A DNA stretch of 64,000 nt from Bugula neritina (Eukaryota > Animalia > Bryozoa). The DNA is taken from positions 21,840,628 through 21,904,627 of the forward strand of contig OZ037767.1 in assembly GCA_964035545.1 (NCBI GenBank). The letters run 5' to 3'. The translations under genes were made by a program, and so were the position numbers. The notes under the pieces are model-generated. The model had not been told where the DNA came from. It searched no databases and saw nothing but the letters and a program-made list of their open reading frames with translations. Position 1 is the first letter of the stretch. Each line of letters opens with the position of its first letter. This document shows positions 49,601 to 52,600 of this stretch, piece after piece.

Positions 49601-52600
49601 ACACACTAAGTACACGAGTAAAAGTAGTATAATCTGAGTAGCACACTTATATAAAACATCTATCCTAGTACATGCAGCATCACGCTCTAACTGAATTGTA
49701 TTATAAAACTGTCCGGAAGCCCATCTGCTTCGCCGGGGGGGGGGGGGGTAATCACGTGCTTAGTGGGGATTGGCTCGTGAGCACGTGGCACTTACGCTTC
49801 ACTGACCATTACACCGCCCCCTCCAGCAGGGAGCCTACTTCCCGCTAAAAAAATGAGTGGGAGGGAAGCGTAAAAAAGAACATGAATATATATATATAAA
49901 AAAAGATACAATACCAGAATAAAAAAATACATAAAAAATACCAAGATACACACAATTATTATCTTTCTAATCCTATTTACAAAATATAGTTTTTCACAGC
50001 ACCGGTGGAGCATCAGGAGGAATGGAGACGGACGAGATACGTCTGGAGACAGAGGTGGTGTAGGGAGAAAGAGAAAGAGAGTGCCGCACTAATCTTTAGT
50101 GGCATGTTTCAGCCGATTTATAGACTCTTGAAGGGACTTCAACTCACTAGTCGCTGCTTTTACTTTGGGAGCCAAACGATGCACTTCCCTCTTGAGCTCG
50201 TTGGTCCTTACTTTGACTTCCTGCAAGTTCCGGGCCAGAGGAGAGGAACGGGAGGGGGACTGAGGAGGTCCGTGTTTCTTCCGATCTGCTGGGGGAAGTG
50301 GAGGAGGAAGGGTGTAGGCTTGTGTGTCGATGCGCTGGAGGATAACACATGGGATGGTTCTAGGACGACGGATTGAGTTGGTTTGAGATGGAGTAGAGAA
50401 GCCAGGAGGCTTAGTGACAGGTCTTGGTGTAATGGGTTGCGGGGAGGGGAATCCTTGCTCCAGACGTATCAGTCAAGCGGGGTCAGTGATGAAGGGCCGG
50501 ATTAGGTTGAGAAAGGTAGGATAAGAACTCTCATCCATGTCGTAGGGGTGGCCAGGAAAGCAACTCATGGTCTGCTGATGTCTCAGCACATAGTCCCTGT
50601 GGTAACTATATTTACCACAGGGACAGAAGGTGGTTACAAAATGCTGCAGGAGGTGGACCTGCAGCCGACGGTGTGTTGTAAAGTGCTGCTGGCACAAACG
50701 GCACAAACGGCACTCCGTGTTATCCTCGTCTCCTCTGTGTTTCCGTATCTCCGCCTCCGTGGCGGGTGTAGTCCAGCAAGACTTGGATTCCAGCTGGTAT
50801 GGTAGTTTCTTAGTGGAGAGGGTGTGTGTCGTGGGCTCCGGATCCCAGGCCATCTCCAAGGGTGGCATCCCTGGTGAAACGGGAGCGAGTGCGTCGTCTA
50901 CAAAAGTAGAGTTATTGTCAGATCGCAACGGATCTTTACAACATAATTCTAGTGACAATCGACTGTTACTAGTCTGAGAGTCACAACTTTTACAAGACAC
51001 TCGAGAGACCAGTTGATTACGTGCAGACTGACCAAGAATGACAGTGTCTAGCTCGAGATCTAACAGATCGTCGGCCAAAACTGCGTCCTCATCCGATTGA
51101 TTAGTTTAGAATTAACTGGCATCGGGCCTGTTTCCATAGATAGGAATACAAGACTTAGACAGGCTTAGGCTTACCTGAGAACTTAGTATTGTATGACATA
51201 CTCAATGTTCAGTAGTAGTTGTGAGCTTAAGAGGTAGTTGTGAAATACGTCTGCCCTTGGCGATGTCAGCGTAGGAAAGGCCGGGCAGCATGTTTGCTGC
51301 ACGTGGCTGGAACTCTTTGTTCCGAGCGCATTATTTCCACCCACTACTCCGCCCTCGCAAAAGTTGATATTTGCGTGGGGCTCACAACTCTCACATTTGC
51401 CCGATGATTTTCCCATACGATCTCTCCCTAAACTTTCATACGCGCCGCTTTGGATGCAGTCACATACGAAATTTTTCAAATAGGGTGGGGGTTGCCTCGT
51501 ACGCTGTCCCCGTTCTAGAGACGGTGACGCACTCGCCGGTGGACTAATGAGTACCAATGGCGGTGCTTCTGATTCACTGGTAGTGGTTACTTCTTCCTTT
51601 TCTCCGGATGGAGCCTCTCCCTCCGTGGGGGTTTGCACTTCCGGAACCGGCTCGGTTTCCGGAAGTGATGGTATCAGACTTGACGTCGGAGGCGGCGGGC
51701 GCACTTCTTTACGTAGAAGCGGTCGCTCGTCTCGTACCAAGTCTTCTTCCCACGGAATGACCACTTTGTACTTGGGTCCATGCCGCCGTTGCCCTCGCGT
51801 TGTTGTCTGCCTTCTGGGCTCCAACAACGAGGGGGGGGGGCTTCCTCCACTGCGTCTGGGCTAGCCCAATACGGCTTCAAGCGAGCCTCATTTTGGATGG
51901 ACACCTGTCCTGAGCGCTCGATTTTGTAGGTATGGTTGGGCATAGCCTCGACTACCACGTAGGGTCCCACGAACTTAGGCTGCAATTTAGCCACTTGTCC
52001 GCGACGCCTACGTTAATTGGCCATTCACACCCAATATCCTGCCTGGTAGAGGAGTGGTTCCTTGGAATTCTCGCGCTGCATCTGCCACTGCTTCTCCCGC
52101 AGCATTTCGTATGCGACTCTCATCCGTTCCACTAATTCACTGGCATACTCGTGAACCGAGTTGTCTTGCTCTGGAATGTGGTAGGTAAGATGGTCAGGGA
52201 CCCGATTCTCTCTCCCGAGCATCAGGAGGTTTGGGGTCTCACCAGTACTGGTGTGTGGTGTGCTACGGTATGCGCGCATGACTTGCGGCAGCACCATGTC
52301 CCATTCCTCCTGACTGCGTCCGAGGAGTAGACTCCTGGCAGAATTCACACTGTTTTACTCTGACTCGGACATTACGCCCCATGGTGGGCCAATACCACCA
52401 GAGTTGTAATTTAGAGAGCACTCTCTGGACTCCTGCGTGAGCCTGTTTGTGAGTGTCCCAAATTAACTCACGGCGTATGGCAGTGGGGCAGACCACCCTC
52501 TTCCTCTCCGGGTGTCTGCCGTTGGCGGCTAAAGAAATGGTCAGCAGACTATCTTGCCCGATCCTCAGCGAGTCCCAACGTTGACAGAATAGCCAAAATT

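What the first reader, a model, noticed from the sequence alone, without database searches (positions are those of the whole stretch)
50089..51130. Gypsy element with a hidden accessory ORF in the env position: zinc fingers + Pro-rich linker + coiled coil
Seen: between the end of pol (51183) and the PPT there is ~1 kb of coding-like sequence. The ORF track shows only 51078-50473, but the same frame runs on past a single TGA (plausibly CGA>TGA) for 127 more sense codons to TAG at 50089, giving a ~345-aa protein. It has an acidic N-terminus, CRLCQQHFTTHRRLQVHLLQH (C-x2-C-x12-H-x3-H), a second finger-like CPCGKYSYHRDYVLRH, a Pro/Ser-rich linker and a C-terminal heptad coil. There is no signal peptide or TM segment, so it is not env. 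Established: extra 3' ORFs in animal Gypsy elements are typically env-like. Inference: an element-encoded nucleic-acid-binding, oligomerising accessory protein (transactivator, anti-silencing or targeting factor), possibly defining an undescribed Gypsy lineage.
Basis: partly seen in the sequence, partly recalled or inferred. Interest (0 to 1): 0.85.

Follow-up and report, generated by a model that had tools for sequence, protein, structure and literature searches.

The report
Zinc-finger accessory gene of Gypsy retrotransposons
A decayed jumping gene carries, where retroviruses keep their envelope gene, a conserved gene for an uncatalogued two-zinc-finger, coiled-coil protein that many related elements carry fused to their integrase, and that likely works in the nucleus to promote the element's own expression.

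Summary
Real and broader than reported. A decayed Gypsy element (49489-55860, minus strand) has a third gene between pol and the polypurine tract. This copy has the stop at 50473-50475 and also a frameshifting deletion near 51091; other copies differ at both places. Ten relatives are intact at 355-383 aa, and 136 clusters share a core of about 115 residues: a C2H2 finger, a C-x-C finger and flanking helices. No Pfam family covers the core. It has no membrane segment, so it is not env. Of 120 Pol proteins fetched by reverse-transcriptase similarity alone, 22 carry the same core and usually the coil fused behind integrase; core and RT similarity track each other. So the cassette is old in this lineage and occurs both free and Pol-fused. 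Annotated bryozoan genes also carry it. Function is untested: a self-activating nuclear regulator (0.4), an integrase tether (0.27) or an RNA-export factor (0.2). Ten literature searches found no description; Repbase, Dfam and GyDB could not be searched.

The parts
50089..51137 (-). Third gene (ORF3), broken in this copy: ATG 51137, short frameshifting deletion near 51091, stop at 50473-50475, end TAG 50089
51046..51080 (-). Acidic leucine-rich segment (activation-domain-like or export-signal-like; inferred)
50430..50790 (-). Conserved core of about 115 residues: Trp-strand, helix, two zinc fingers, V-D strand, helices; predicted as one compact domain
50641..50703 (-). Finger 1, C-x2-C-x12-H-x3-H
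   Evidence: sequence
50560..50625 (-). Finger 2, C-x-C-x12-H-x5-C
   Evidence: sequence
50239..50429 (-). Pro/Ser-rich, basic linker (RKRR run in most intact relatives)
50092..50238 (-). C-terminal coiled coil, predicted homodimer in a relative
51183..55156 (-). pol in pieces: protease, RT, RNase H, integrase H2C2 finger, integrase C-half (front of the catalytic core missing), GPY/F-SH3 region and tail
55032..55361 (-). Short gag remnant; most of gag is missing
   Evidence: no Pfam match
55375..55392 (-). Primer-binding site TGGTGGCAGCGGTGGGAT, identical in related locus L053
55394..55709 (-). 5' LTR (TGT...ACA)
49489..49813 (-). 3' LTR (TGT...ACA); the repeated ends differ at 7 of 461 aligned bases
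49814..49824 (-). Polypurine tract
   Evidence: sequence
55710..55854 (-). Copy of the 3' untranslated stretch and polypurine tract (49814-49956) placed in front of the 5' LTR
55861..55865 (-). Target-site duplication GTCTC; the other copy is at 49484-49488
   Evidence: sequence

Best explanation
The third gene of this Gypsy lineage encodes a two-zinc-finger, coiled-coil protein, free in this subfamily and fused behind integrase in many relatives, that likely acts in the nucleus as a dimer to promote the element's own transcription. Shown: the gene exists, is intact in many relatives, travels with RT, and occurs free or Pol-fused with the same order of parts. Predicted: a compact two-zinc domain and a dimerising coil. 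Inferred: the free protein is made from a subgenomic RNA, enters the nucleus through its basic linker, binds DNA or chromatin through the basic finger helices, and recruits host co-activators through its acidic leucine-rich N-terminal segment. The window's own copy is dead.
For: Layout of a transcription factor: acidic Leu-rich N-terminus, fingers, basic run, coil. Among 10 intact relatives the N-terminal 45 residues are 71% identical and the fingers 81%, against 40% for the linker before the core. LxxLL motifs lie before the core in 6 of 20 distant free-standing and 6 of 22 fused members, 1.5 expected from shuffles in each set. The two fingers superimpose best on tandem DNA-binding fingers (Kaiso Z 5.3, rmsd 2.7 over 60 residues; next rows Z 4.0). 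Finger 1 helix positions are basic, and finger 2 has Asp at +2 in 100 of 137 and Arg/Lys at +6 in 82 of 137. The window's subfamily has its own conserved Met start, so the protein works without integrase there. Coil homodimer score 0.32 against best control 0.01, contacts agreeing at least 95% between runs, pLDDT at least 73; the mark was reached by 17 of 29 eukaryotic pairs and 0 of 30 single chains.
Against: No binding or expression data. Z 5.3 is below the level that separates real matches from common arrangements, and no Foldseek match reached E 0.001. No linker is TGEKP-like (0 of 137) and the fingers pack into one domain, so they may bind RNA or protein instead. The LTR has no repeated motif longer than 8 bases that could be an obvious operator. 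Conserved helix residues across elements whose cores are only about 20% identical fit a fixed host ligand better than fast-changing LTRs (inference). 22 of 64 complete-looking Pol proteins keep the cassette in frame with integrase, which a pure trans-activator does not need. Acidic-patch enrichment in free-standing members is weak (21 of 30 against 284 of 600 shuffles) and basic runs are barely above shuffles. The dimer score sits exactly at the mark and coiled coils can pass from memory.
Confidence: 0.4

Rival explanations
1. The cassette is an integrase tether: it rides on or with integrase, binds a host DNA or chromatin feature, and steers insertion sites, as the chromodomain does for chromoviruses.
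For: 22 of 120 RT-retrieved Pol proteins carry it in frame at the integrase C-terminus, spread across the whole lineage, plus P0183 and P0095 from the independent ORF3 search. This is the position of the chromodomain (PMC2774666 passages). Helix residues are conserved across the family. Sixteen further Pols run 245-781 residues past the GPY/F motif, several with acidic or coil segments but no core, which suggests fusion is commoner than counted.
Against: The core lies 229-674 residues behind the GPY/F motif, behind a low-complexity spacer. The window's subfamily keeps it as a separate gene with its own start, and its 33-row core clade has no member among the full Pol fusions. Fused and unfused Pols are often sisters in the RT tree.
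Confidence: 0.27
2. It is a Rev/CERV-type factor: it binds the unspliced element RNA, oligomerises through the coil and exports the RNA from the nucleus using a leucine-rich export signal.
For: A class-1a export-signal pattern lies in the acidic segment in 6 of 10 intact close relatives (0.8 expected from shuffles) and in this copy. CERV of Cer1 combines a leucine zipper, candidate import and export signals and a Cys loop and is needed for genomic RNA export (PMC10309623). A separate third gene implies a subgenomic RNA (inference).
Against: The pattern is broken in 4 of those 10 related proteins, and occurs in 0 of 20 distant free-standing and 2 of 22 fused members in its strict form. CERV's described domains (H, M, G) differ from this core. 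Fusion to integrase has no evident use for an export factor.
Confidence: 0.2
3. It is a one-off captured host fragment or neutral cargo with no role for the element.
For: Annotated genes of Watersipora and Bugula carry the domain. The 20 best-supported differences between this copy and others inside the gene fall 8, 7 and 5 on codon positions 1, 2 and 3, as in neutral decay.
Against: That decay concerns this dead copy only. Ten relatives at 48-69% identity keep open frames of 355-383 codons; metal ligands are nearly invariant across members about 20-30% identical; core identity tracks RT identity (Mantel rho 0.46, 0 of 5000 permutations); host copies fall at three places among element-type rows.
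Confidence: 0.05

Closest known systems
CERV of the C. elegans LTR retrotransposon Cer1 (PMC10309623; abstract and passages read)
   Same: Non-env accessory nuclear protein of an animal LTR retrotransposon with a leucine zipper, a cysteine-rich putative finger and basic and leucine-rich signals.
   Different: CERV has H, M and G-protein-like domains, shares exons with gag and is predicted to form rings; here the core is a C2H2 plus C-x-C finger pair, the coil is C-terminal, and the cassette is often fused to integrase. Sequence relationship to CERV was not tested directly.
Chromodomain of Ty3/Gypsy chromoviruses (PMC2774666; passages read; targeting role recalled)
   Same: Extra domain at the integrase C-terminus in a whole Gypsy lineage.
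   Different: Different fold, hundreds of residues from the GPY/F motif, followed by a coil, and free-standing in part of the lineage. No chromodomain was among the Pfam matches of the window's pol pieces or listed for the 120 Pols.
Family-specific non-env ORF3s of bdelloid rotifer LTR retrotransposons (PMC5408684; passages read)
   Same: Third ORF after pol that is not env; includes a coiled-coil type.
   Different: Described types are GDSL esterase, DEDDy exonuclease, coiled-coil and transmembrane; 'zinc' and 'finger' occur 0 times in that text.
Tandem C2H2 DNA-binding fingers (Kaiso/ZBTB33, SALL4, Tramtrack)
   Same: Finger 1 matches the C2H2 pattern; the finger pair superimposes at Z 4.0-5.3 over 50-60 residues.
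   Different: Second finger is C-x-C with a variable last ligand, the linker is hydrophobic, and extra strands and helices wrap the pair; the match covers about half of the domain.
Foamy virus Tas and HTLV Tax (recalled, no call)
   Same: Element-encoded nuclear activators made from the 3' part of the genome.
   Different: They belong to vertebrate retroviruses and are not integrase-fused; no sequence or fold link appeared in the viral fold search.

Membership tests
Ty3/Gypsy LTR retrotransposon | pol order PR-RT-RH-IN with GPY/F module | tested here: met
   coordinates
Ty3/Gypsy LTR retrotransposon | LTRs with TG...CA ends, PBS, PPT, target-site duplication | tested here: met
Named Gypsy clade (GyDB/Repbase) | RT groups with reference elements of a named clade | not testable with these tools
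   No reference set on hand; the RT tree holds 102 unnamed relatives at 61-83% and 18 named-host sequences at 40-50%
env gene | Transmembrane anchor and signal peptide | tested here: not met
   Highest 19-residue hydropathy 0.51-0.96 in 11 proteins
env gene | Homology to a viral fusion protein | tested here: inconclusive
   No Pfam match; viral fold search best E 0.11
Classical C2H2 finger array | C-x2-C-x12-H-x3-H finger | tested here: met
   Finger 1; below Pfam's cut-off in most members
Classical C2H2 finger array | TGEKP-type linker and repeated classical fingers | tested here: not met
   0 of 137 linkers; finger 2 is C-x-C
Classical C2H2 finger array | Sequence-specific DNA binding | not testable with these tools
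   needs binding assay
Chromovirus | Chromodomain at integrase C-terminus | tested here: not met
   No chromodomain match in the window's integrase tail; the appended domain in relatives is the zinc core
CERV/Rev-type export factor | Leucine-rich export signal conserved across the family | tested here: inconclusive
   6 of 10 close, 0 of 20 distant, 2 of 22 fused in strict form
CERV/Rev-type export factor | Needed for export of unspliced RNA; made from spliced RNA | not testable with these tools
   No RNA holder listed

The most novel reading that the evidence does not exclude
A large, unnamed lineage of marine-invertebrate Gypsy elements has carried since its origin a transcription-factor-like zinc domain that switches between an integrase appendage and a free gene, giving a retrotransposon its own DNA-binding regulator or a new kind of integration tether, and bryozoan hosts have taken it over as genes more than once.
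Probability: 0.45. Interest if true: 0.75.

Novelty: new variant of a known kind. Interest (0 to 1): 0.62.

Why it matters
Animal LTR retrotransposons are usually treated as gag-pol(-env) and dependent on host factors. A conserved zinc-finger cassette across a whole lineage would add either an element-encoded transcription regulator, as in complex retroviruses, or a second class of integrase tether beside the chromodomain. The free and fused states give a natural comparison for asking which, and the domain is a candidate new protein family with host-gene members.

Tried and rejected
No whole genome is held for this window, so copies could not be collected and codon-level dN/dS was not computed. 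Locus scans with the close-family alignment found no relative in metagenome or viral contigs. A degenerate motif scan gave 68 + 6 + 26 loci, of which 1 of 100 (L053) holds the full core; L050 is a partial chance match in a bacterial-looking locus. A search for 470-2000-residue proteins with the diverse alignment scored none of 3951 candidates, a miss later contradicted by the RT route. Fold searches with the full-length model returned only coils and weak finger matches; the core-only model gave no Foldseek match at E 0.001 and no Z of 8 or more; this does not show the fold is new. ESM Atlas gave unnamed clusters and generic C2H2 families. No RNA holder was listed. No contig piece spanned pol, ORF3 and LTR together. 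A possible splice signal near 51174 was seen but could not be tested. Earlier-finding look-ups by place, by sequence and by one word set were empty. Env was rejected for lack of hydrophobic segments. Host taxon was not determined.

Full report
Observation. The minus-strand frame 51105-50089 has 339 codons with one internal stop at 50473-50475; the other two frames over this stretch hold 25 and 21 stops. The frame lies inside a Gypsy element: LTRs at 55394-55709 and 49489-49813, a primer-binding site at 55375-55392, a polypurine tract at 49814-49824, a GTCTC target-site duplication, and pol pieces in the order protease, RT, RNase H, integrase, GPY/F. The repeated ends differ at 7 of 461 bases. 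Gag is mostly missing and pol has several frameshifts and stops, so this copy is dead.

Breaks are private to this copy. Contigs of four runs (2 samples, 1 study; one may be the window's own source) differ from the window at the stop position: 754 of 879 summed depth in X1 and all of it in X2-X4. Relatives start at a Met that aligns with ATG 51137 in a different frame, and other copies hold extra letters near 51091-51093. One contig in X2-X4 carries the C-terminal half of the gene and the LTR together. The 20 displayed differences within the gene (the tool shows only its 40 best-supported rows of about 1875) fall 8, 7, 5 on codon positions 1, 2, 3, as expected for decay of this one copy.

The family. 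Searching with the frame read through with X gave 53 proteins among 1046 candidates; 10 cover at least 98% of the query, are 355-383 aa long and 48-69% identical. The exhaustive search gave 136 clusters at E 0.001, 66 at 1e-10. 102 of the 183 proteins then held carry the full motif C-x2-C-x10/14-H-x3-H-x3/5-C-x-C-x11/13-H. Among the 10 intact relatives, mean identity is 81% over the fingers, 71% over the first 45 residues, 66% over the coil and 40% over the linker before the core. A coil-like segment follows the core in 49 of 72 members with a long enough tail, against 38 of 720 shuffles. Pfam matches only finger 1, in 8 of 34 members, and no family covers the core. AlphaFold2 models of two natural members give a confident core (residues about 120-240 of P0002, block pLDDT 88-97; P0182 mean 83.6) with disordered flanks and C-terminal helices. 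The finger pair superimposes best on Kaiso (Z 5.3, rmsd 2.7, 60 residues), then other tandem fingers at Z 4.0 or less; that is a middling score. The coil of P0002 was predicted as a homodimer at 0.32 against a best control of 0.01, just at the mark.

Link to the element. This is the main new result. I searched with the window's RT for proteins of 656-2000 residues; the best 120 of 5426 hits were listed. Although retrieved without any use of the third gene, 22 of the 120 carry the core in frame behind integrase (E 9e-7 to 2e-29); 0 of 120 reversed sequences score. By a motif rule, 18 rows are distant (RT under 55%) and none has the core, 38 end before or near the GPY/F motif, 42 run past it without the core, and 22 are fused: 22 of 64 informative Pols. 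Fusions over 2000 residues could not appear, and whether the 42 have a separate third gene is unknown. 15 of the 22 end in a coil (13 of 105 shuffles) and 16 have an acidic Leu-rich patch before the core (120 of 440 shuffles). Fused Pols are spread across the lineage's RT tree, including a branch near the window (FastTree). Core identity tracks RT identity among the 22 and the window (rho 0.46, 0 of 5000 permutations; 0.37 without near-identical pairs), which points to long joint inheritance. P0183 has an integrase half 51% identical to the window's with the core in frame, and P0095 has the window-like pol end motif in frame. Locus L053, 1 of 100 motif-scan loci, shows a core-bearing ORF of over 726 codons ending at a polypurine tract, then an LTR-like stretch, the same primer-binding site, gag and protease; its 5' end is cut off.

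Hosts. Of 30 clusters looked up, 4 have NCBI-named members, from the bryozoans Watersipora subatra and Bugula neritina. These look like host genes: isoforms are annotated, two have a doubled core, and three share an extra N-terminal segment. In a core tree of 99 rows and 127 columns they sit at three places among element-type rows; support is low and one origin is not excluded (near-identical rows and most close relatives were left out). Domestication from elements is my inference. The window's host is not known.

Mechanism. Shown: a conserved cassette of acidic segment, two-finger core, basic linker and coil, free or Pol-fused. Predicted: compact fold and dimer. Inferred: function. I favour a nuclear activator of the element's own transcription (0.4) because of the layout, the conserved acidic segment with LxxLL enrichment (6 of 20 and 6 of 22 against 1.5), the basic finger helices and the free state here. 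An integrase tether (0.27) fits the frequent fusion and the conserved helix residues. A CERV-like RNA exporter (0.2) fits an export-signal pattern in 6 of 10 close relatives but not in distant ones. Neutral cargo is unlikely (0.05).

Literature. Ten searches listed no paper describing this cassette. I read the abstract and passages of PMC10309623, passages of PMC5408684, PMC2774666, PMC8220671, PMC6338049 and PMC8556966 ('zinc' and 'ORF' 0 times), and ran a term search in PMC6238403 (all six terms 0 times). Supplements were not read; element lists in the mollusc and annelid surveys may include this lineage. Repbase, Dfam, GyDB and subscription journals were not searchable. Tas, Tax, the targeting role of chromodomains and the export-signal and LxxLL patterns are recalled. 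Non-env third ORFs are known, so this is a new variant of a known kind, with a domain that no library here names.

Verdict. Observation confirmed with corrections; interpretation supported in outline; function open. Interest 0.62.

Noticed in passing
window 55710-55860: About 145 bases of the element's 3' untranslated stretch, including the polypurine tract, are repeated in front of the 5' LTR, inside the target-site duplication; this may come from plus-strand priming upstream of the usual site or from recombination.
   Followed up: partly
window 55861-55920 and 49430-49488: The element seems to have inserted into a short tRNA-like interspersed repeat whose two halves flank it.
   Followed up: no
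P0223, P0260, P0251, P0270: Pol proteins that keep a C-terminal coil or acidic patch after integrase but lack the zinc core, like internal deletions of the cassette.
   Followed up: partly
P0146, P0189, P0190: Watersipora and Bugula proteins with the core share an extra N-terminal segment not seen in element-borne members; the two Bugula genes have adjacent locus numbers.
   Followed up: no
P0129 with P0228; P0052 with P0222: Each pair of a free core protein and a Pol has the same longest-contig length (6627; 7016), hinting at pol and a separate third gene on one contig; not verified.
   Followed up: no
window 51168-51180: TTCTCAG/GTAAG about 35 bases before the third gene's ATG could be a splice signal.
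   Followed up: no
window 38481-38551: ARAGORN calls one tRNA-Cys gene; it may be a tRNA-derived repeat.
   Followed up: no
window 13575-14222 (-) and 21595-22353 (+): Two long acidic, low-complexity open frames, probably host exons; the first has a 30-base tandem repeat.
   Followed up: no
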